The position numbers and the translations under genes are program-made. From Escherichia coli (GTDB taxonomy: Bacteria; Pseudomonadota; Gammaproteobacteria; Enterobacterales; Enterobacteriaceae): a DNA stretch of 64,000 nt. Below are positions 3,014 to 10,432 of this stretch, one piece after another (position 1 is the first letter of the stretch; each line of letters begins with the position of its first letter). A model generated the notes under the pieces. That model was given only the letters and a program-made list of their open reading frames with translations, had not been told where the DNA came from and did not search any database. Location of the stretch: assembly GCF_024223415.1 (NCBI RefSeq), contig NZ_CP100500.1; one strand, 5' to 3'.

Positions 3014-3232
3014 ATGGCAAACCGCAAACAGCGCCGCGCTATCGCTGCGCAGCGTCACATCCAGACCGAAATCAACCGCAGACTCTTCCGCGCCCACAAC
3101 ATCGCGCGAATCATGCACGCCAACATGCTGCATGAACGCAGTAACGCGTTATCAAACCTCTATTCCGCTTCCGTTTTCAGCTATCTGGCGGACGACCTGC
3201 GCGAGCTGCAAGACCTCATTAACCAGCACTGA
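3014..3232 (+). CDS. hypothetical small basic protein (72 aa)
   Basis: ORF with Shine-Dalgarno GAAGAGG upstream. Confidence 0.35.
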   Translation: MANRKQRRAIAAQRHIQTEINRRLFRAHNIARIMHANMLHERSNALSNLYSASVFSYLADDLRELQDLINQH

Positions 3233-3304
3233 TAAACAACCCGAAGCCATCCTGCGCCCGTTCGCGGGAGGCTTCCGCACATCTGTAGTCGGGAGGATTG
3301 CGCC

Positions 3305-3673
3305 ATGATTCTGGCTGACGATTTTCTGGAGTACCTGAACAACACCGAGCGCGACCTGTACGCGCGCGTTCTCACCCGTTACGAGAAATACAAACTTTCG
3401 CTGCCAGAACATCAACTCCGCGAAGGCGATATCGACATTGAAGGGCGCTACATCGTCAGGCACCTCATAGCGGGCTACGGCATCTGGCGTGTCACCGGAC
3501 GTGAGCATTCATTGCTGACCATCTGCCAGAGTCCGTCCGGCGTGATAACGGAGATCGTCGCTGATAGTCTGCGACTCACCCATCACAGCGCCACCCCGGA
3601 AGAAACGCTGGCAGAAACCCAGCGTCTGTGTCGCGTCATTGCCAACGCCGCCCTCCGCGCAGACAGGAGGTAA
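3305..3673 (+). CDS. hypothetical prophage early protein (122 aa) immediately upstream of replication gene
   Basis: GGGAGG Shine-Dalgarno; ends 3 nt before gene A start. Confidence 0.5.
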   Translation: MILADDFLEYLNNTERDLYARVLTRYEKYKLSLPEHQLREGDIDIEGRYIVRHLIAGYGIWRVTGREHSLLTICQSPSGVITEIVADSLRLTHHSATPEETLAETQRLCRVIANAALRADRR

Positions 3674-3676
3674 GCG

Positions 3677-6166
3677 ATGGAGTTCGTCAGAGACTGGCAA
3701 AAACCGCGCCCCGCTATCGGGCGCGAAGGCTTACCCGTACCTGAAACCGCACTGGATACCATCCTGAAGTGTTACCGCGCGGACGAAGAGCGCGCCCTGA
3801 ACGCTGAAGAGCAGGGTCATCCGCTTGCGGGCACAACCATCGGTAACGCGATCGACAAGTGGGAAGGCGCACAGGAGCGCCAGGAAGAGGCCATCACGCT
3901 CACACAGGAAGCGAAGAGACGCCCACCCACCCTCATTGAGGAAACCCTCAAAGAGCTGGACACCCTGCCAAAGTGGTTGAGGCTGCCACTGATTAAGCAC
4001 CTGAACTTCTTAAGGCGCAAACAGGAGGACGAACAGCAGAAAGGCAAACGCGGCAAGGACACCCGCAAATACGAGCGCTTCGTACAGAACGGGATCCCCG
4101 CACGTCTTTGCCGTATTCGTGAGATTAACGATCGCTTTGCACCGTTGAGTTTTCAGGCCGCTGCCATGCGCGAGAGTCTGGAAGAGTTAATCACACTGCC
4201 GAACCTGAGCCGTGAACGCATCCAGAAAATAGCCGTACTGCTTGCCAGCGCCGTTAAAATGCATCTTGCCGACGCAATGGACAAGGCCCGCGAAATAACA
4301 GGGAACGACAAAGACGACAACCTGAACAACTGGCTGATTGCCTACCAGTATATTGGTCGCCGTGTCCTGAAGCTGGGGATCACCCCACCATACTGGAGCG
4401 CCCTTGAACTCCGTCCCGACCGCAGAAGCCCCCCGGACCTGACACTGGTACCGGGCGCTGTTTTGCGCCTGAACGACGCCGAATGGTGGAATAAAAAACT
4501 TCGCCAGATGCACGACGTCTGGCGTGAGGAACTTTTACGTGCAGCGGGCCTTGTATCCCGCCAGACCTCCATTTATGTGAGCCGGGAAGCACTGGCAGAC
4601 TTCCGCGAGAAACAGGCCCGTACCCGCGATTTTCTCAAAGCGCACGACGTGGAGAACGAAGACGGCGAACGCATCAGCCTGGAAGATATCTACTACACCA
4701 GTACATCCAACCCGCATAACCGCCGCAACGAGATGATGGCGTGCGTCAAGGGAATGGAGCTTATCGCACAGGAACGTGGCGACGTGGCCTTCTTCGTCAC
4801 GGTCACAGCCCCGTCTCGTTTTCACAGCGTCACCGACGCCGGTACCCTTAACCCGAAATACAAAGGCACAACAGTAAAAGACGCCAGCGACTATCTGGTT
4901 TATAACTTCTTCGCCTCCGCCCGCAAACTCATCAAAAAAGAGAAGCGGGGCTGGTACGGCATTCGCACCGTTGAGCCTCACCACGACGGCACGCCCCACT
5001 GGCACATGCTGGTATTCACAAGCCCCGAGAACGAAGCGCGCATCACGGAAATCATGTGCAATGCCGCCATCCGTGAAGACCGTGCAGAGCTGGGCGACGA
5101 CATTACCCCGCGCTTCAAGTGCGAGAAGATAGACCCCGAAAAAGGTACGCCAACCAGCTACATCGCCACCTACATCGGCAAAGGCATTGACGCCGCCGCA
5201 TTCGGCGACACGGATCCCAAAACAGGCAAACCGCCCGTTGACCACGAAAGCGGAAAACCTATGGCGGACACCGTGGAAAACGCCGTCGCCTGGGCACGCC
5301 TGCATCGCATTCGCCAGTTCCAGTTCTTTGGCCTTCCCTCACGTCAGGTGTGGCGCGAGTTCCGCCGCCTTGCCGGACAAATGGCACGCAACCCGAAGGG
5401 GCCGCAGGCACTGACCAACCCCAAAGCCGACGCTCTGCTGGCCGCCGCCGACGTGGGGTGTTTTGCCAGCTACATTATGCATCAGGGCGGCGTGCTCATT
5501 CCCCGCAGTGAATATCTGGCCCGCACGGCCTACGTCACCGCAGAAGAGCCGAACAACTACGGCGAGTTCCCCGACCGTATTTACGGTGTACGGATGCCGG
5601 AACTGGGCGATGAGTTCACGTTATGTACCCACCCGGAAGAGTGGAAACTCGTCAGAAAAGAACCGGAATCAGACGACCGCACGGGCGAGGGTTTTGACCT
5701 TCAGGGCGACCCCGTCGCCCCTTGGACTCGTGGCAATAACTGTCACCCTGACGAAAAAACAACCAACAACAGCACACAAACCGGACAGTCAGAGTGGGCA
5801 AAACTGCCCCCCTTACCCCCATCGTCGGACGGTTTTGTGAGCTGGTTTAAGTCGCTTAAGAGGCCGGACAGGAAAAAACTACAAAGATTGCTCAAAAAAC
5901 GCACCGAAGAGAGTCGCCAGAACGCCAGCGGCGGCACCGACACACCCACCGACACCATTAACCTGGGCGTTGTGCTGCCGGAACTGCCGGAAATCGTGCA
6001 AGTCCGCCGCGATCTGGAAGCGCTGGGCGCGGACTTCCCCGAAGCAATGGCCCATTCCGTCTTTATGGGTGCCCGCGTTCGTCTGGGTAACGGTCGCACC
6101 GTTCACCGCGACGAGCAGACCGGGCGCATCACCGTCACCAGTCTGCAACCGGAGGCGAAACCATGA
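3677..6166 (+). CDS. rolling-circle replication initiator, P2 gpA-like (829 aa)
   Basis: Large ORF with AGGAGG Shine-Dalgarno; contains the HWHMLVF histidine-hydrophobic motif typical of P2 A-type endonucleases. Confidence 0.85.
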   Translation: MEFVRDWQKPRPAIGREGLPVPETALDTILKCYRADEERALNAEEQGHPLAGTTIGNAIDKWEGAQERQEEAITLTQEAKRRPPTLIEETLKELDTLPKWLRLPLIKHLNFLRRKQEDEQQKGKRGKDTRKYERFVQNGIPARLCRIREINDRFAPLSFQAAAMRESLEELITLPNLSRERIQKIAVLLASAVKMHLADAMDKAREITGNDKDDNLNNWLIAYQYIGRRVLKLGITPPYWSALELRPDRRSPPDLTLVPGAVLRLNDAEWWNKKLRQMHDVWREELLRAAGLVSRQTSIYVSREALADFREKQARTRDFLKAHDVENEDGERISLEDIYYTSTSNPHNRRNEMMACVKGMELIAQERGDVAFFVTVTAPSRFHSVTDAGTLNPKYKGTTVKDASDYLVYNFFASARKLIKKEKRGWYGIRTVEPHHDGTPHWHMLVFTSPENEARITEIMCNAAIREDRAELGDDITPRFKCEKIDPEKGTPTSYIATYIGKGIDAAAFGDTDPKTGKPPVDHESGKPMADTVENAVAWARLHRIRQFQFFGLPSRQVWREFRRLAGQMARNPKGPQALTNPKADALLAAADVGCFASYIMHQGGVLIPRSEYLARTAYVTAEEPNNYGEFPDRIYGVRMPELGDEFTLCTHPEEWKLVRKEPESDDRTGEGFDLQGDPVAPWTRGNNCHPDEKTTNNSTQTGQSEWAKLPPLPPSSDGFVSWFKSLKRPDRKKLQRLLKKRTEESRQNASGGTDTPTDTINLGVVLPELPEIVQVRRDLEALGADFPEAMAHSVFMGARVRLGNGRTVHRDEQTGRITVTSLQPEAKP

Positions 6167-6573
6167 ACCGTTATCATTGTGTACTGCCGCGCCACTACTT
6201 CGGTCAGATTATGCGCTCGCGTATTCCGGCGGTCACGCTGCGAAACCTGAGCACGGTACCGCAGCCGGGCGATGAGCTGGAAATCGCCGTAGCAGGCCCT
6301 GACCGTTCAGCCAGCTGCGTGACCGCCGACGTGCTGAACGCCGTGCCCGTAGGTGGTGACTGGCTGGTTGCCATCCGCTTCCGCCAAGACCCGTTCGCAC
6401 CTGAACCGCTCACCCCCGCAGGCCGCATCATGCAGAACTGGCGGGATGAAGGCGCGAAGGCGAACTGCGAAAAACTGATTAACAGGATTGCCACGACAAA
6501 CCGACATGCCGCGCTGGCGCGCCGGATATACCCCGCAAAACCGACACAACCAACAGGAGTAAAACGCCCATGA
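6163..6573 (+). CDS. hypothetical protein coupled to gene A (136 aa)
   Basis: Start ATG overlaps the gene A stop (ATGA); last gene before the cargo island. Confidence 0.5.
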   Translation: MNRYHCVLPRHYFGQIMRSRIPAVTLRNLSTVPQPGDELEIAVAGPDRSASCVTADVLNAVPVGGDWLVAIRFRQDPFAPEPLTPAGRIMQNWRDEGAKANCEKLINRIATTNRHAALARRIYPAKPTQPTGVKRP

Positions 6574-6709
6574 AAAGAATCGCCGGAACCCACAGAGACA
6601 CAAAAAGACACCAAAAGCAGCAAAGACACATTGAATAAACGAAAACTGGTGATATGATTTGTTCAAAGATGTTATGATTTATTCATAAGTAACCTTTCAG
6701 GCTTAAGTT

Positions 6710-7084
6710 ATGAATAAACAGGATTTTGGACTTGATACCCTTTTGAGTATGCATGGTTACCAGCATCACATGGATAACGGGTACTGGTGGAAAATTAAGG
6801 CTTACCGGGTAAGTCCAAGTCCGTTCAGACCTCACGGGATACGCTACAATCTGACGTTACATGACCGCTACAATTCGCGTGTGTTTGGTATGGACAACGC
6901 ACATGGAATAAAACCGCCAAAGAAGGGAAGATTTACAGGAAAGTTAACTGTTTATGATCATGTGCACCGTACCCCGGTGGATAAAGGTTATCCCTATGAG
7001 TTTGTATCCGCAGAACAATTGTTATCTGATTTCTTTGATAACGTTGATCGGCTCATTAACGAAGTTACAAAGGGGAAAGCATGA
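6710..7084 (+). CDS. uncharacterised His-rich small protein (124 aa), first gene of cargo operon
   Basis: ORF follows an AT-rich promoter-like region with direct repeats (6640-6705); stop overlaps downstream start; no recognisable family. Confidence 0.6.
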   Translation: MNKQDFGLDTLLSMHGYQHHMDNGYWWKIKAYRVSPSPFRPHGIRYNLTLHDRYNSRVFGMDNAHGIKPPKKGRFTGKLTVYDHVHRTPVDKGYPYEFVSAEQLLSDFFDNVDRLINEVTKGKA

Positions 7085-7467
7085 AAGCCCGCATCGGGAT
7101 CATCCCGGAAAAAGTCCTGCGTCAGCGCCTGATTGAAATTGCCAAGGGGGAGCGGAAACCACACCCCGACGAGCCAAGGGTATGGTTTTCATCCATCAAT
7201 GCGGCGGGTCAGGCGCTGAGCAATGAAAATATCTCCCTTCTTCGTCTTATGGATGAGGAGAAACCGCAGACCATGACCGAACTTGCGGAGTTATCCGGCA
7301 GAAAACTGAGTAACCTGTCTGTAACCCTGAAAATGCTGAGCAGCTACGGTTTTGTCAGTCTGGAAAAGAAAGGAAATACCGTACACCCGAAGGCACTTTT
7401 TACCGATTTTGAAATCATCGTTGATCCGTCCGTCGGTTCAGTACATCGCGCCACCGCCCGCCCCTGA
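7081..7467 (+). CDS. uncharacterised protein with predicted winged helix-turn-helix (128 aa), second gene of cargo operon
   Basis: ATGA overlap with upstream ORF; segment TMTELAELSGRKLSNLSVTLKMLSSYGFVSLEK resembles MarR/ArsR-type wHTH; followed by hairpin terminator. Confidence 0.6.
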   Translation: MKARIGIIPEKVLRQRLIEIAKGERKPHPDEPRVWFSSINAAGQALSNENISLLRLMDEEKPQTMTELAELSGRKLSNLSVTLKMLSSYGFVSLEKKGNTVHPKALFTDFEIIVDPSVGSVHRATARP

Positions 7468-7480
7468 AGTGTGCAATAAA

Positions 7481-7505
7481 CAGCCCCGGTCGGGGCTGTT
7501 TTTTA
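7481..7505. terminator. bidirectional intrinsic terminator between convergent cargo operons
   Basis: GC hairpin CAGCCCCGGTCGGGGCTG flanked by T-run on the + strand and A/T-run on the - strand. Confidence 0.6.
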
Positions 7506-7877
7506 TTCCAGAATCAGCTGTTCAGGTGTGCAGCCGTACAGTCTGGCAAGGCGCTCAATATTTGCCCTGCGCGGGCGTTCTGTTCTTTCGAATTCGGACA
7601 CGGTAGCCTGCCTGATACCCAGCGCATCCGCCACCTGCTTTTGCGTCATTCCGCGATAGATTCGCCACGCCGCCTGCATGGTGCAGCCACGTTCCGAGAG
7701 GATGTTGACCACCTCGTTGGGATACAGCGTATCAGGCGATGCACTCGGTTCGTTCTGGACGTCCTCGTAGAGTTCGTCAAGGTCGCTGTCTCCTGCCAGT
7801 TTTTCAAACAACGCCACTGGCAGAATGACGGATACCCTGTTACCCGCACCGTCAGTAATAAACTGAATCTGACTCAT
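7503..7877 (-). CDS. XRE-family HTH protein, HigA-like antitoxin candidate (124 aa)
   Basis: AGGAGG Shine-Dalgarno 6 nt upstream; C-terminal HTH MTQKQVADALGIRQATVSEFE; downstream of a RelE/ParE-like ORF. Confidence 0.65.
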   Translation of the reverse strand: MSQIQFITDGAGNRVSVILPVALFEKLAGDSDLDELYEDVQNEPSASPDTLYPNEVVNILSERGCTMQAAWRIYRGMTQKQVADALGIRQATVSEFERTERPRRANIERLARLYGCTPEQLILE

Positions 7878-7950
7878 TTGCCCCTCCTGCTAAACATCGG
7901 TTTATTTTTTAATTTGCTGCCGGTGATAAAAAACGGCGGGTCGCCCCGCC

Positions 7951-8223
7951 TTAGTATGTTGTCGAGGTTCTCCGCTGAATACGGAGGATCCTGATAACCA
8001 CTATCTGCCCTCCCTCAATCGTGAACCTGACACGGTAATGATTTACCCTGAGTCTGTACTCCCCGCCCGAGTCAGTGAGCTTTTTAATATCCAGATTCTG
8101 GAACTTCGGATAGCCATAAAGCGCGTTAACTTTCTCGCGTAAGGATTTCTGATCCCTCGCTGGCAAAACCCGTAAATCTTTGATTGCCCGAGGGGTCCAC
8201 ATGATTTCAGTCGTCATAAACAC
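7951..8223 (-). CDS. RelE/ParE-superfamily toxin-like protein (about 83-90 aa; start at 8223, 8217 or 8202)
   Basis: C-terminal EYRLRVNHYRVRFTIEGGQIVVIRILRIQRR matches the RelE/ParE pattern; toxin-first (HigB/HigA-like) order. Confidence 0.6.
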   Translation of the reverse strand: MFMTTEIMWTPRAIKDLRVLPARDQKSLREKVNALYGYPKFQNLDIKKLTDSGGEYRLRVNHYRVRFTIEGGQIVVIRILRIQRRTSTTY

Positions 8224-8268
8224 ACCGGAAGCAAATTATTAAAGAGCCGTGCCCGCTGGCACACCTTA

Positions 8269-8297
8269 AATATAGGTTTTAACCCCTATATTGTCAA
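8269..8297 (-). promoter_or_regulatory. sigma70 promoter (TTGACA-N17-TATATT) with overlapping inverted repeat, upstream of the toxin/HTH pair
   Basis: Near-consensus -35/-10 on the minus strand; ATATAGG/CCTATAT inverted repeats overlap the promoter, consistent with an autoregulatory operator. Confidence 0.5.
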
Positions 8298-8806
8298 ACA
8301 AAATCCCTATATCATGAAGTAAAAAAGCACCTCCCGCGACCTCCCTTTCCGGTGCACGAAAGTGCACAAATTTGCACAATTTTTTTGAACGACTTTTTGC
8401 CCTTCCGGCCCGTGTGGCGTCTGGATCCGTCGGGGATCCGTGCGTGCACGAAAAAAGGCCTTTTTCTGCGCGCAGGTGACGGGGGAACAGCCCGCGTTTC
8501 AGGGGGTAAATAGCATTCCCTGAACGATGTTGCAGTGACACAACAGAATGGCTGTATTTCTCACGCTGAGCGTGAAAAAGACGTAAGGGCTTTTGATTTG
8601 ATGGGGTGAAAGATAAGGCCGTCAAAATCGCACTGAGGCAGCGAGAATATGTCGTCAGAGTTGCGGGGTTGCGTAAGCATCCGCCCGGCGATGATGGCTA
8701 CAGGGCTGGAGATGTTGTGAAATTATCTGAAGGAATAACCAGCTTGCAGGAGAACCCGGGCAAAGTCAGAATAGCGGCAGGCATCAACTCAAAAGAGGAT
8801 AATGTC

Positions 8807-9310
8807 ATGAGCCACTTTAATGATTTATGCCAGATCAATCGTGAAGCTGAAGAAAAACGCGCTGAGGCAGCTCAAATTTTGCGGGATGAAGCGGCAAGGC
8901 TGATTGATTTCTATGAAGAATGGCTGGGGCTTCCATCCATGTACTGGGAAGACGATGATGGCGACCTGCACCGCTACGTGGAGACAGGCTTGCCATGTAA
9001 GACAGCGGCGGATTTTAGTCCTCTTTCAGTCCACAATATCGCATCTGCACCAGACAATATTTTCCGCATGGCCGTACGAACCTGGGTTAAGTCATCTGAC
9101 AGCAGCTACCCGGTAAGCGTGGTTATTGCACTTGAATTATATTCAGTAGATGCGGAACGGGTGTCTCTGAGAGTCCGGGTGGAAGACGATATTTCTGTTC
9201 GCGTATTTATCAATAAACCCAGCGAAGAAGCCTGGGGCGATGTTGTTATGCACATGAAAAAGCACATCGCTAATCACCTGAAAAAGCGAGCGCCATCAGC
9301 ACTTCGTTAA
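8807..9310 (+). CDS. hypothetical cargo protein (167 aa from the ATG with Shine-Dalgarno; track ORF begins at 8606)
   Basis: AGAGGA Shine-Dalgarno 7 nt before ATG at 8807; followed by hairpin terminator GGGGCATAAA/TTTATGCCCC. Confidence 0.5.
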   Translation: MSHFNDLCQINREAEEKRAEAAQILRDEAARLIDFYEEWLGLPSMYWEDDDGDLHRYVETGLPCKTAADFSPLSVHNIASAPDNIFRMAVRTWVKSSDSSYPVSVVIALELYSVDAERVSLRVRVEDDISVRVFINKPSEEAWGDVVMHMKKHIANHLKKRAPSALR

Positions 9311-9376
9311 GCAGAGCTGGAGAGTCGGGGCATAAATTTTTTATGCCCCGGCGAAGCAGCAGACAAGCGAAGCGCG

Positions 9377-10432
9377 TCAGGATATGGGCCGGGTGTCTAA
9401 CAGTGCGTAAGGGTTAAAACGGATCACCTCTTCGCCCAGCCAGTCGTTGACGTGTTTCATTGCTTCCATGACGGGCATCAGTTCGTTAATGGCAAACACA
9501 CGGGCTGCCTTCTCCACATCCCCGAATGACCCCTTCTCACCCGGCATGGCCCCCATCAGCTGAGGTGGCACGCGGTGCACAGCCAGCACGTCATCACGCG
9601 ATGCGGCCTTGACGTTCATGAACTCATCCTTTGCGGTGATTTGCTGAAACGGCAAAATCTGTACGCCATCCTTACCACCTCCCGCCGCGTGGATGAGCAG
9701 ATTTTTAAACGCCCCGCCACCACGCGCGCTTTGCAGCGTTTCCCGCAGTTTTTCCATGCTTTCACGGTCAACCTGCGCCGCACCGATGTAGACAATACAG
9801 CCCGCGTGTGAGCCGTTATCGTAGTAGAGCTTGCGGAAGATATCGGCGGAATGTGACAGGCTGGCAGACAGCAGGCCGCCCAGGTAATCCGGCATCCCGT
9901 AAATCTCCTGGTTGATATCAGGATTCATCAGGTGGCATATCGTCCCCTCACGAAAGCGGTACTCTTCCTGTCCTTCCTGTATATACCACCATGATTTCAT
10001 ATCGCTGCCACGTCGCATGTATTTCGCCAGCGCCCGGCGCAGGGCCAGCGGTTCGCCAAGCATGTTGCGCCGCAGCTCAAGACAGGCATTACCGAACACA
10101 AACCAGTCCATCGCCACCCCGGCGAACTCCTGGCGGGACAGCAGAGGATGTGGAATATAGCAGCCCAGCAGCACATTACGTTTGAAGCTGAGCGCCGACT
10201 GGTGCCAGGACGTCTGGCGGGCAGCCCGTGCCAGTCCGTACCAGTCAACGGGCGTTTCAAACCACCGCCCGTTGTCGGCGCAGTACATGCTGTCCAGCAG
10301 GTCGGCCCCTGACAGCCGGTAAGGTCCTTCAAACGTGAAGGCACTCAGTGTCGGGTCGCTTCGCAGGGAATCCGCAAGGCTGCCCTGCGCTGCGCGGGCG
10401 TTCGTACGTCGTTGTTTATTTTTTCTGCTCAT
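9377..10432 (-). CDS. portal protein (P2 gpQ-like, 351 aa)
   Basis: Size and position immediately downstream of the terminase ATPase gene on the same strand, as in the P2 PQ operon. Confidence 0.75.
   Translation of the reverse strand: MSRKNKQRRTNARAAQGSLADSLRSDPTLSAFTFEGPYRLSGADLLDSMYCADNGRWFETPVDWYGLARAARQTSWHQSALSFKRNVLLGCYIPHPLLSRQEFAGVAMDWFVFGNACLELRRNMLGEPLALRRALAKYMRRGSDMKSWWYIQEGQEEYRFREGTICHLMNPDINQEIYGMPDYLGGLLSASLSHSADIFRKLYYDNGSHAGCIVYIGAAQVDRESMEKLRETLQSARGGGAFKNLLIHAAGGGKDGVQILPFQQITAKDEFMNVKAASRDDVLAVHRVPPQLMGAMPGEKGSFGDVEKAARVFAINELMPVMEAMKHVNDWLGEEVIRFNPYALLDTRPIS

What the first reader, a model, noticed from the sequence alone, without database searches (positions are those of the whole stretch)
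6710..7467. Translationally coupled two-gene operon of unknown family (His-rich 124-aa protein plus 128-aa wHTH protein)
ORF1 (MNKQDFGLDTLLSMHGYQHHMDNGYWWKIKAYRV...) overlaps ORF2 by ATGA. ORF2 has a clear winged-HTH-like segment. The pair follows an AT-rich, repeat-containing promoter-like region and ends at a strong bidirectional terminator. A small effector with a DNA-binding partner is the typical shape of toxin-antitoxin or abortive-infection modules, yet neither protein shows a motif I can assign (no RelE, HEPN Rx4-6H, nucleotidyltransferase, PIN or zinc-finger signature). ORF1 is notably rich in His and aromatic residues, which could indicate metal or nucleic-acid binding.
Basis: partly seen in the sequence, partly recalled or inferred. 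Interest (0 to 1): 0.85.

Follow-up and report, generated by a model that had tools for sequence, protein, structure and literature searches.

The report
TumE-family toxin–antitoxin pair in prophage
The two overlapping genes are real, but they are not an unknown family: they are a divergent member of the TumE toxin–antitoxin family described in 2023, paired with a DNA-binding partner that probably shuts off their own promoter, and they sit in the variable cargo slot of a P2-like prophage.

Summary
ORF1 (6710-7084, 124 aa) and ORF2 (7081-7467, 128 aa) overlap by ATGA. A promoter-like region with repeats lies upstream and a strong hairpin terminator downstream.

The "unknown family" reading does not hold. 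RefSeq names the near-identical E. coli ORF1 (99% identical in translation) "toxin-antitoxin system TumE family protein" (DUF6516, PF20126). It names the identical ORF2 "HVO_A0114 family putative DNA-binding protein" (PF25212). TumE toxins were shown to be toxic, neutralised by their partners and translation-inhibiting (Durairaj et al. 2023, PMC10584680). Those tests used a different sub-branch with different antitoxins.

New findings here:
- All 32 loci fetched with an ORF1 relative (37-100% identity) have an ORF2 relative immediately downstream.
- A 15-bp palindrome, TAT[G/C]A-N5-T[C/G]ATA, lies within 100 nt upstream of the toxin gene in 21 of 21 non-redundant loci. It occurs once elsewhere in 251 kb. 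It overlaps the -10 hexamer in the window.
- The palindrome's G/C class tracks one residue of ORF2's recognition helix.
- Toxin-deleted, antitoxin-retaining variants exist; the reverse was not seen.
- The pair recurs between gpA and portal genes in at least three P2-like lineages.

No anti-phage role has been tested. Verdict: new member of a known kind, modest interest.

The parts
6631..6678 (+). Promoter region with two overlapping sigma-70-like matches: TTGAAT-16-TATGAT at 6631-6658 and GTGATA-18-TATGAT at 6649-6678. Both have TG before the -10 hexamer.
   Evidence: The region holds 6 promoter-like sites against 2.0 +/- 1.4 in shuffles. Each -10 hexamer is the left arm of one palindrome (sequence read).
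6653..6667 (.). Imperfect upstream copy of the operator palindrome, TATGA-TTTGT-TCAAA (4 of 5 arm pairs). It lies 20 bp upstream of the perfect copy.
   Evidence: This second copy was seen only in the window-type allele.
6673..6687 (.). Predicted operator: perfect palindrome TATGA-TTTAT-TCATA (TTATGA...TCATAA with flanks), 37 nt upstream of the ORF1 ATG. It overlaps the -10 hexamer at 6673-6678.
   Evidence: The same TAT[GC]A-N5-T[GC]ATA motif lies within 100 nt upstream of the toxin gene in 21 of 21 non-redundant loci. It occurs once elsewhere in 251 kb and nowhere else in the 64-kb window.
6710..7084 (+). ORF1: TumE/DUF6516-family protein, the predicted toxin (124 aa). Conserved motifs are PHG (41-43), TLH (49-51), N55, R57, DNAH (62-65) and DHxH (83-86).
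7070..7084 (+). Translational coupling junction. The ORF2 Shine-Dalgarno sequence (AAGGGGAAAG, 7070-7079) lies inside the ORF1 3' end, next to the ATGA stop/start overlap.
   Evidence: Spacing between ORF1 stop and ORF2 start is -4 to +6 nt in the homologous loci with gene calls. The 3' stub carrying this SD is kept in toxin-deleted variants.
7081..7467 (+). ORF2: HVO_A0114-family winged-HTH protein, the predicted antitoxin and autorepressor (128 aa). It has an N-terminal beta-alpha-beta extension (1-45), a wHTH (48-105, recognition helix 76-89 with V81) and a C-terminal strand (109-114).
7478..7508 (+). Intrinsic terminator: 10-bp stem, 4-nt loop and T-run. It is shared with the convergent HTH gene that ends at 7503.
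6590..7018 (.). Swappable cassette holding the promoter, operator and the first ~103 codons of ORF1. Sister prophages carry two unrelated ORFs plus a terminator here instead.

Best explanation
This is a type II toxin-antitoxin operon of the TumE (DUF6516) superfamily. It is carried as accessory cargo in the gpA-gpQ variable slot of a P2-like prophage.

Proposed mechanism:
1. The operon is transcribed from a sigma-70 promoter at about 6631-6678 and ends at the hairpin at 7478-7501.
2. ORF1 is the toxin. By homology it arrests growth by inhibiting translation. The likely catalytic site is a conserved His/Asp/Asn/Arg cluster (H42, H51, N55, R57, D62, N63, H65, D83, H84, H86) on a fold with no solved structural analogue. 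The biochemical activity is unknown; RNase activity has been proposed only in the literature.
3. ORF2 is translationally coupled to ORF1 and is the antitoxin. It probably neutralises ORF1 by direct binding, perhaps through its conserved N-terminal extension.
4. As a dimer, ORF2's winged HTH probably binds the palindrome TATGA-N5-TCATA, which overlaps the -10 hexamer, and so represses its own operon.

Shown here: gene structure, family assignment, strict conservation of the pair and its order, the conserved operator motif and its position, and asymmetric loss (toxin lost, antitoxin kept).

Inferred: toxicity, neutralisation, DNA binding, and any role in prophage maintenance or phage exclusion.
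For: Family:
- RefSeq names both genes as TumE family and HVO_A0114 family.
- Nearly all of the 120 listed ORF1 homologues carry a precomputed PF20126.5 hit (114 of 120), including one 86% identical.
- 19 of 40 aligned homologues hit Pfam TumE on a fresh scan, best 2.7e-11.
- The AF2 model (pLDDT 83) is alpha+beta, with an N-terminal and a C-terminal helix flanking a beta-sheet, as described for TumE.
- The AFDB50 matches listed (top 50 of 114 with E <= 0.001; the listed ones reach E about 7e-08) are uncharacterised or DUF6516 proteins.
- TumE toxicity, neutralisation and translation inhibition were shown experimentally for six pairs (PMC10584680).

Module:
- 32 of 32 loci with an ORF1 relative have an ORF2 relative directly downstream on the same strand. 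The identities co-vary, from 89/82% down to 37/39%.
- These loci include Pectobacterium, Legionella and Desulfobacter islands and plasmids of Enterobacter and Cupriavidus.
- dN/dS is 0.03-0.04 for both genes.

Autoregulation:
- The palindrome is present in 21 of 21 upstream regions against one hit in 251 kb elsewhere.
- It overlaps the -10 hexamer.
- The arm class covaries with recognition-helix residue 81. TATGA/TCATA goes with V/A/S in 12 loci. TATCA/TGATA or hybrid arms go with R in 9 loci.
- That position aligns with a residue in the SmtB recognition helix.

Toxin/antitoxin asymmetry:
- Among 5,426 complete E. coli genomes, 12 hold the pair, 3 hold ORF2 plus only a 3' stub of ORF1, and none holds ORF1 alone.
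- An independent metagenomic lineage shows the same stub-plus-intact-ORF2 arrangement.

Context: low-GC cargo next to a RelE/HTH pair, in the gpA-gpQ hotspot defined by Rousset et al. 2022 (PMC9122126).
Against: - The window protein itself gives no Pfam hit, even at E <= 10, with PF20126.4. It also has no NCBIfam hit. Membership therefore rests on transitive homology and on other people's annotation.
- The experimentally validated TumE pairs come from subcluster 1a, with small non-wHTH antitoxins. The paper states that DUF6516 mostly lies downstream of its partner. Here the order is reversed and the partner is a different family.
- I could not retrieve a validated TumE sequence for direct comparison.
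- No experiment addresses this sub-branch.
- The operator/recognition-helix covariation may reflect a single evolutionary switch, so it is confounded by phylogeny.
- The orphan ORF2 copies sit behind a terminator with no obvious promoter. Their retention could be passive.
Confidence: 0.7

Rival explanations
1. The pair is primarily an anti-phage abortive-infection or exclusion system. Infection by a competing phage would free or activate ORF1, which shuts down translation and aborts the infection, to the benefit of the resident P2-like prophage. This extends the TA model rather than excluding it.
For: - The pair lies in the gpA-gpQ slot, where old, tin and many validated defence systems reside (PMC9122126).
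- It recurs in that slot in at least three diverged P2-like lineages, with portal identities of 100%, 68% and 30-33%.
- Elsewhere it neighbours AbiE, restriction-modification genes, integrases and other TA modules.
- A 2026 preprint predicts an antiviral role for a sizeable minority of the unannotated P2 hotspot proteins and confirmed several in P4 satellites.
Against: - ORF1 has no PADLOC match. ORF2 matches only through generic wHTH similarity to Csa3/CasR.
- There is no hit in 50,697 deposited phage genomes.
- No paper links TumE or DUF6516 to defence.
- The pair also sits between housekeeping genes in Serratia and on plasmids, where addiction or selfish persistence explains it equally well.
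- It is rare: 15 of 5,426 E. coli genomes.
Confidence: 0.3
2. The pair is not a toxin-antitoxin system. ORF1 would be a non-toxic metal-dependent enzyme or metal-binding protein, and ORF2 an ArsR/SmtB-like regulator that controls it in response to a ligand.
For: - ORF2's best NCBIfam match is the ArsR/SmtB metalloregulator model (6e-06), and SmtB is its best PDB sequence match.
- ORF1 is His-rich with five invariant His.
- DeepFRI predictions in the TumE paper include transition-metal binding.
Against: - The ArsR match scores 26 bits against a curated cut-off of 55.
- ORF2 has no Cys. None of its His residues is among the invariant or near-invariant columns of the family alignment.
- No transporter or resistance gene is linked. 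The contexts are mobile elements and TA/defence islands.
- Six family members were directly shown to be toxic.
- Asymmetric loss of ORF1, never of ORF2, is what a toxin predicts.
Confidence: 0.08
3. ORF2 is a prophage regulator with targets beyond its own operon, for example other hotspot cargo. ORF1 would be just one of several interchangeable upstream passengers.
For: In sister prophages the same ORF2 (91-99% identical) follows two unrelated ORFs instead of ORF1.
Against: - Those variants keep a 65-nt non-coding stub of the ORF1 3' end. They are therefore deletions or replacements of the toxin, not alternative native partners.
- The palindrome occurs only once in the 64-kb window, at the pair's own promoter.
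- In 32 of 32 other loci the upstream gene is a TumE homologue.
Confidence: 0.05

Closest known systems
TumE-TumA toxin-antitoxin superfamily (DUF6516, Pfam PF20126; Durairaj et al., Nature 2023, PMC10584680)
   Same: - ORF1's homologues match PF20126.
- Size is similar (about 120 aa).
- The predicted alpha+beta fold has two helices and an antiparallel sheet, with no PDB analogue.
- The arrangement is bicistronic with a DNA-binding partner.
- RefSeq already applies the TumE name to a protein 99% identical to ORF1.
   Different: - The validated pairs are subcluster 1a from sulfur- and methane-oxidising Gammaproteobacteria. Their antitoxins are small (constructs of 289-388 bp) and RelB-like or hypothetical, and the toxin is reported as mostly downstream of its partner.
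- Here the toxin gene comes first, and the partner is a 128-aa HVO_A0114 winged-HTH protein.
- The window protein is divergent enough to miss PF20126.4 entirely.
- No member of this sub-branch has been tested.
Toxin-first type II TA systems with an HTH antitoxin downstream (HigBA, MqsRA, HicAB). This comparison is from my own general knowledge.
   Same: - The gene order is toxin then antitoxin.
- The two genes overlap or are tightly coupled.
- The antitoxin carries a DNA-binding domain.
- A palindromic operator overlaps the promoter.
P2 gpA-gpQ hotspot cargo (old, tin and other anti-phage systems; Rousset et al. 2022, PMC9122126)
   Same: - It occupies the same genomic slot, between the replication endonuclease gene and the portal gene.
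- It has low GC.
- It shows cassette-like swapping with flanking homology.
   Different: No anti-phage activity has been shown for this pair, and it is absent from PADLOC 2.0.
ArsR/SmtB and Csa3 winged-HTH regulators
   Same: ORF2's wHTH (residues 38-105) aligns with SmtB and Csa3 (E about 2e-3).
   Different: - ORF2 scores below the family cut-off.
- It lacks metal-ligand residues and a CARF domain.
- It has a distinctive conserved N-terminal extension (IGI..P...R..IA.GE.KP..EPKVWF).

Membership tests
TumE / DUF6516 (Pfam PF20126) | The protein itself matches the Pfam TumE model | tested here: not met
   hmmscan of ORF1 against Pfam-A (PF20126.4) gave no hit even at E <= 10. There was no NCBIfam hit either.
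TumE / DUF6516 (Pfam PF20126) | Unambiguous homology to proteins that match the model (transitive membership) | tested here: met
   phmmer gave 131 homologues at E from 1e-72 to below 1e-3. Nearly all carry a precomputed PF20126.5 hit, including P0001 at 86% identity. 19 of 40 aligned homologues hit PF20126.4 at E <= 1e-3, best 2.7e-11. RefSeq names WP_029490435.1 (99% identical to ORF1 in translation) TumE family.
TumE / DUF6516 (Pfam PF20126) | Alpha+beta fold: two helices packed against an antiparallel sheet of about seven strands, with no PDB analogue | tested here: met
TumE-TumA TA system | Conserved bicistronic arrangement with a cognate partner | tested here: met
   32 of 32 loci have the partner directly downstream on the same strand, and identities co-vary. 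Spacing is -4 to +6 nt in the loci with gene calls.
TumE-TumA TA system | Toxin arrests growth and the cognate antitoxin neutralises it | not testable with these tools
   Indirect evidence only. The toxin is lost and the antitoxin kept in 3 E. coli genomes and in one independent metagenomic lineage. The reverse was never seen.
TumE-TumA TA system | Toxin inhibits translation | not testable with these tools
   Shown only for Allochromatium tepidum TumE (PMC10584680).
Validated TumE subcluster 1a | Same gene order and same antitoxin type as the six tested pairs | tested here: not met
   The paper reports DUF6516 mostly downstream of its partner, with small RelB-like or hypothetical antitoxins. 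Here the toxin is upstream and the partner is a 128-aa HVO_A0114 wHTH. No direct sequence comparison was possible because I could not obtain the validated sequences.
HVO_A0114 family (Pfam PF25212) | Match to the family model | tested here: met
   ORF2 residues 30-105 match PF25212 at 3.8e-16. phrog_11214 matches at 3e-20. All 120 listed relatives carry PF25212.
ArsR/SmtB metalloregulators | Score above the curated cut-off, and metal-ligand residues present | tested here: not met
   NF033788 scores 26 bits against a cut-off of 55. ORF2 has no Cys and no conserved His in the family alignment.
Known or candidate anti-phage systems (PADLOC-DB 2.0) | Effector matches a defence-system model | tested here: not met
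   ORF1 has no hits. ORF2 has only wHTH-level matches to CasR/Csa3.
RelE/HigB, HEPN, PIN and other classical type II toxins | Sequence or fold match | tested here: not met
   There is no Pfam or NCBIfam hit and no PDB fold match.
P2-like gpA-gpQ hotspot cargo | Located between the replication endonuclease gene and the portal gene of a P2-like prophage | tested here: met
   gpA-like gene at 3677-6166 and portal at 9377-10432. The pair occupies the same position in L014 and L018-L020, and in L015-L017. The hotspot is defined in PMC9122126.

The most novel reading that the evidence does not exclude
The TumE/HVO_A0114 sub-branch is a previously unrecognised anti-phage abortive-infection module that P2-like prophages trade in their cos-proximal hotspot. 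Its toxin would be a new-fold, His-dependent nuclease acting on the translation apparatus. Its wHTH partner would both neutralise the toxin and set expression through the TATSA-N5-TSATA operator.
Probability: 0.25. Interest if true: 0.55.

Novelty: new member of a known kind. Interest (0 to 1): 0.3.

Why it matters
The finding closes an apparent "unknown family" by assigning it to TumE-TumA, one of the few TA superfamilies discovered through AlphaFold-era dark-matter mining.

It also adds concrete, testable detail for a branch that nobody has tested:
- a strictly conserved toxin-first pairing with an HVO_A0114 winged-HTH partner;
- a family-wide operator, TAT[G/C]A-N5-T[C/G]ATA, overlapping the promoter;
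- a candidate specificity residue (V81 versus Arg) in the recognition helix;
- a short list of invariant His/Asp residues to mutate in a toxin whose biochemistry and fold remain unsolved.

Its recurrence in the P2 defence hotspot makes it a reasonable, though unproven, candidate for phage-exclusion testing.

Tried and rejected
- Direct family scans of ORF1 (Pfam, NCBIfam, PADLOC) gave no hit, and PHROGs gave only a chance-level one. The family emerged only from RefSeq annotation and homologue searches.
- A PDB sequence-profile search with the ORF1 alignment gave only chance-level hits.
- tblastn against 50,697 phage genomes found no match.
- I tried to reach the experimentally validated TumE proteins for a direct comparison. 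The paper's supplement gives accessions but no sequences. A walk from a 37%-identical relative landed in a Burkholderiales clade, not the validated species. The genome-contig scan was not spent, because motif-based patterns from this sub-branch are unlikely to hit proteins at about 25-30% identity.
- The subcluster number in the paper's network could not be determined from the text or the supplements.
- Rfam gave no RNA family in 6000-9500 apart from one sub-threshold gyrA-RNA hit, so there is no sign of an RNA antitoxin.
- The ArsR-type metal-sensor reading of ORF2 was rejected. It scores below the cut-off and has no ligand residues.
- The 'ORF2 pairs with alternative upstream effectors' reading was rejected, because the variants keep a stub of ORF1.
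- Spatial clustering of the invariant His/Asp residues could not be checked, because model coordinates are not exposed.

Full report
**Observation**

The window holds ORF1 at 6710-7084 (+, 124 aa) and ORF2 at 7081-7467 (+, 128 aa). They overlap by ATGA. A Shine-Dalgarno-like AAGGGGAAAG (7070-7079) for ORF2 lies inside the end of ORF1.

Upstream, GC falls to 0.43-0.45, against 0.58-0.63 in the neighbouring phage core genes. A 16-nt direct repeat sits at 6650-6665 and 6670-6685, spaced 20 nt. Two overlapping sigma-70-like promoter matches sit at 6631-6658 and 6649-6678.

Downstream, a 10-bp GC-rich hairpin at 7478-7501 folds at about -20 kcal/mol on either strand, with z about -3. It is followed by a strong U-run on the + strand and a weaker one on the - strand. 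It therefore clearly terminates the pair and may also serve the convergent gene that ends at 7503.

Both ORFs are under strong purifying selection. dN/dS is 0.03-0.04 against copies 80-89% identical.

**Genomic context**

The pair sits in a P2-like prophage. On one side is the replication endonuclease gene (3677-6166), followed by a conserved 136-aa ORF (6163-6573). On the other side is the portal gene (9377-10432, -). Also in this interval are a RelE-like/HTH pair on the minus strand (7503-8223) and a 213-aa ORF of unknown function. Rousset et al. 2022 defined this gpA-gpQ interval as the P2 hotspot for accessory, often anti-phage, cargo (PMC9122126).

**Family assignment**

Direct scans of ORF1 found nothing in Pfam (even at E <= 10), NCBIfam or PADLOC, and only a chance-level hit in PHROGs.

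Megablast against complete E. coli genomes found the same DNA in six genomes. There RefSeq names the genes "DUF6516 family / toxin-antitoxin system TumE family protein" and "HVO_A0114 family putative DNA-binding protein".

A homologue search gave 131 relatives. Nearly all carry a precomputed PF20126.5 hit, including one at 86% identity. On a fresh scan, 19 of 40 aligned relatives matched Pfam TumE (PF20126.4), best 2.7e-11, although the window protein did not. ORF1 is therefore a peripheral but genuine member of the family.

An exhaustive profile search of 1.84 billion cluster representatives found 1,117 clusters at E <= 1e-3 and 552 at E <= 1e-10.

ORF2 matches Pfam HVO_A0114 at 3.8e-16 and phrog_11214 at 3e-20. 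Its model (pLDDT 86.5) is a winged HTH, with a recognition helix at 76-89 and a wing at 92-105. It has a conserved N-terminal beta-alpha-beta extension and an extra C-terminal strand. Its nearest solved relatives by sequence are the wHTH domains of SmtB/ArsR and Csa3, at E about 2e-3.

**What is known about the family**

Durairaj et al. (Nature 2023, PMC10584680) named DUF6516 "TumE". They showed that six gammaproteobacterial TumE proteins are toxic in E. coli and are neutralised by their neighbours ("TumA"). One of them inhibits translation. RNase activity was proposed but not proven.

All the tested pairs came from subcluster 1a. Their antitoxins are small, and the paper says DUF6516 mostly lies downstream of its partner. 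The paper states that different subclusters use unrelated antitoxins. I found no later mechanistic or defence literature on TumE, DUF6516 or HVO_A0114.

**New findings from this analysis**

(a) The pairing is strict. In all 32 loci fetched with an ORF1 relative, an ORF2 relative lies immediately downstream on the same strand. The loci come from E. coli, Pectobacterium, Legionella, Desulfobacter, plasmids and 21 IMG/VR contigs, with ORF1 identities from 100% down to 37%. The two identities fall together, from 89/82% to 37/39%. Where gene calls are available, stop-to-start spacing is -4 to +6 nt.

(b) There is a conserved operator. The perfect palindrome TATGA-TTTAT-TCATA (6673-6687) lies 37 nt upstream of the ORF1 ATG. 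Its left arm is the -10 hexamer TATGAT of one promoter match. An imperfect copy (6653-6667), 20 bp upstream, supplies the -10 of the other.

The same architecture, TAT[G/C]A-N5-T[C/G]ATA, lies 17-71 nt upstream of the toxin gene in 21 of 21 non-redundant loci. It occurs only once elsewhere in 251 kb, and nowhere else in the 64-kb window.

(c) The operator tracks the protein. In 12 loci with TATGA/TCATA arms, ORF2's recognition helix reads SNLS[V/A/S]TLK. In 7 loci with TATCA/TGATA arms, and in 2 with hybrid arms, it reads NLSRTLK/R. The varying residue is V81 in the window. It aligns with a residue in SmtB's recognition helix. This covariation may reflect a single evolutionary switch, so it is supportive rather than conclusive.

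(d) Loss is asymmetric. Among 5,426 complete E. coli genomes, 12 hold the whole pair: 6 near-identical copies and 6 at about 74% nucleotide identity. Three hold an intact ORF2 preceded by only a 65-nt non-coding stub of the ORF1 3' end. None holds ORF1 alone.

In those three genomes, window 6590-7018 is replaced by two unrelated ORFs plus a terminator. An independent metagenomic lineage shows the same stub-plus-intact-ORF2 arrangement.

In one orphan copy (L002; L003 stays 99% identical), all 11 amino-acid changes fall in residues 1-67, including the otherwise invariant R16. Its dN/dS rises to 0.23. This fits relaxed constraint on a toxin-binding N-terminus, or a mosaic allele.

(e) The hotspot placement recurs. 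The pair lies between gpA and portal homologues in at least three diverged P2-like lineages, with portal identities of 100%, 68% and 30-33%. It is also found on 30 plasmids, in genomic islands next to AbiE, ParE/RelB, HipAB and restriction-modification genes, and between housekeeping genes in Serratia. It is absent from 50,697 deposited phage genomes.

**Most likely mechanism**

The pair is most likely a type II TA operon.

- ORF1 is the toxin. By homology it targets translation. Its probable active site is built from the invariant residues H42, H51, N55, R57, D62, N63, H65, D83, H84 and H86, which persist in relatives down to 37% identity.
- ORF2 is translationally coupled to ORF1 and neutralises it, plausibly through the conserved N-terminal extension.
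- ORF2 also binds the palindrome over the -10 hexamer as a dimer and represses the operon.

The gene anatomy, the family assignment, conservation of the pair, the operator and the asymmetric loss are shown. Toxicity, binding and DNA recognition are inferred. I put about 0.7 on this model.

**Rivals**

- An abortive-infection or phage-exclusion role is compatible with the TA model. It rests only on location, so I give it about 0.3.
- A non-toxic enzyme with an ArsR-like metal regulator is unlikely. The ArsR match is below the cut-off, there are no ligand residues and the contexts are mobile elements.
- ORF2 as a general prophage regulator with swappable partners is contradicted by the retained ORF1 stub and by the single operator in the window.

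**Membership and novelty**

The pair belongs to the TumE superfamily by transitive homology, fold and architecture. It is not of the validated subcluster-1a type: the gene order and the antitoxin family both differ. I could not compare it directly with a validated sequence.

RefSeq already applies the TumE name to a near-identical protein. The finding is therefore a new member of a known kind rather than a new system.

The conserved operator, the candidate recognition residue, the invariant catalytic candidates and the recurrence in the P2 hotspot are modest, testable additions. Overall interest is 0.3.

Noticed in passing
window 7503-8223 (- strand): A second TA-like pair lies in the same hotspot. 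It consists of a RelE/StbE-like ORF (7951-8223; TIGR02385 at 1e-4, below cut-off; RefSeq names it 'RelE family toxin') followed by an Xre-type HTH ORF (7503-7877). A terminator-like hairpin at 7950-7935 sits between the two genes, and a near-consensus promoter (TTGACA-17-TATATT) lies at 8297-8269.
   Followed up: partly
window 6590-7018, compared with L002 and L003 at 3144-4000: This is a cassette swap. Sister P2-like prophages replace the promoter and the first ~103 codons of ORF1 with a 50-aa ORF, a 193-aa ORF (no PADLOC hit; weak PHROG hits only) and a terminator. Each version keeps a stub of the other. The window has a 22-codon stub (6571-6639) of the sister's 48-aa ORF, and the sister has the 65-nt 3' stub of ORF1.
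   Followed up: yes
window 6163-6573 (+): A 136-aa ORF overlaps the stop of the replication endonuclease gene. It is conserved in related prophages (phrog_14984, 3.9e-40). Its function is unknown, and it has no NCBIfam or PADLOC hit.
   Followed up: partly
window 8669-9310 (+): A 213-aa ORF (an alternative GTG start at 8606 would give 234 aa) lies in the hotspot next to the portal gene. It matches phrog_5091 (3e-52), of unknown function, and has no PADLOC or NCBIfam hit. It is another unannotated cargo gene and a possible defence candidate.
   Followed up: partly
L039 2394-2911 and L040 4-509: An independent metagenomic lineage has an intact 136-aa HVO_A0114 gene preceded by only a C-terminal stub of tumE of about 30 codons. 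A ParE-family toxin gene lies nearby.
   Followed up: partly
L002 4063-4449 (orphan ORF2): All 11 amino-acid differences from the window's ORF2 lie in residues 1-67, including R16H at a family-invariant position. The C-terminal 61 residues are identical. dN/dS is 0.23, against 0.04 for paired copies. The cause is either relaxed selection after toxin loss or a recombinant allele.
   Followed up: partly
window 9318-9371 (+): A weak Rfam gyrA-RNA match (22 bits against a gathering score of 45, E = 0.034) lies between the 213-aa ORF and the portal gene, near where the P2 cos region would be expected. It is probably chance.
   Followed up: no
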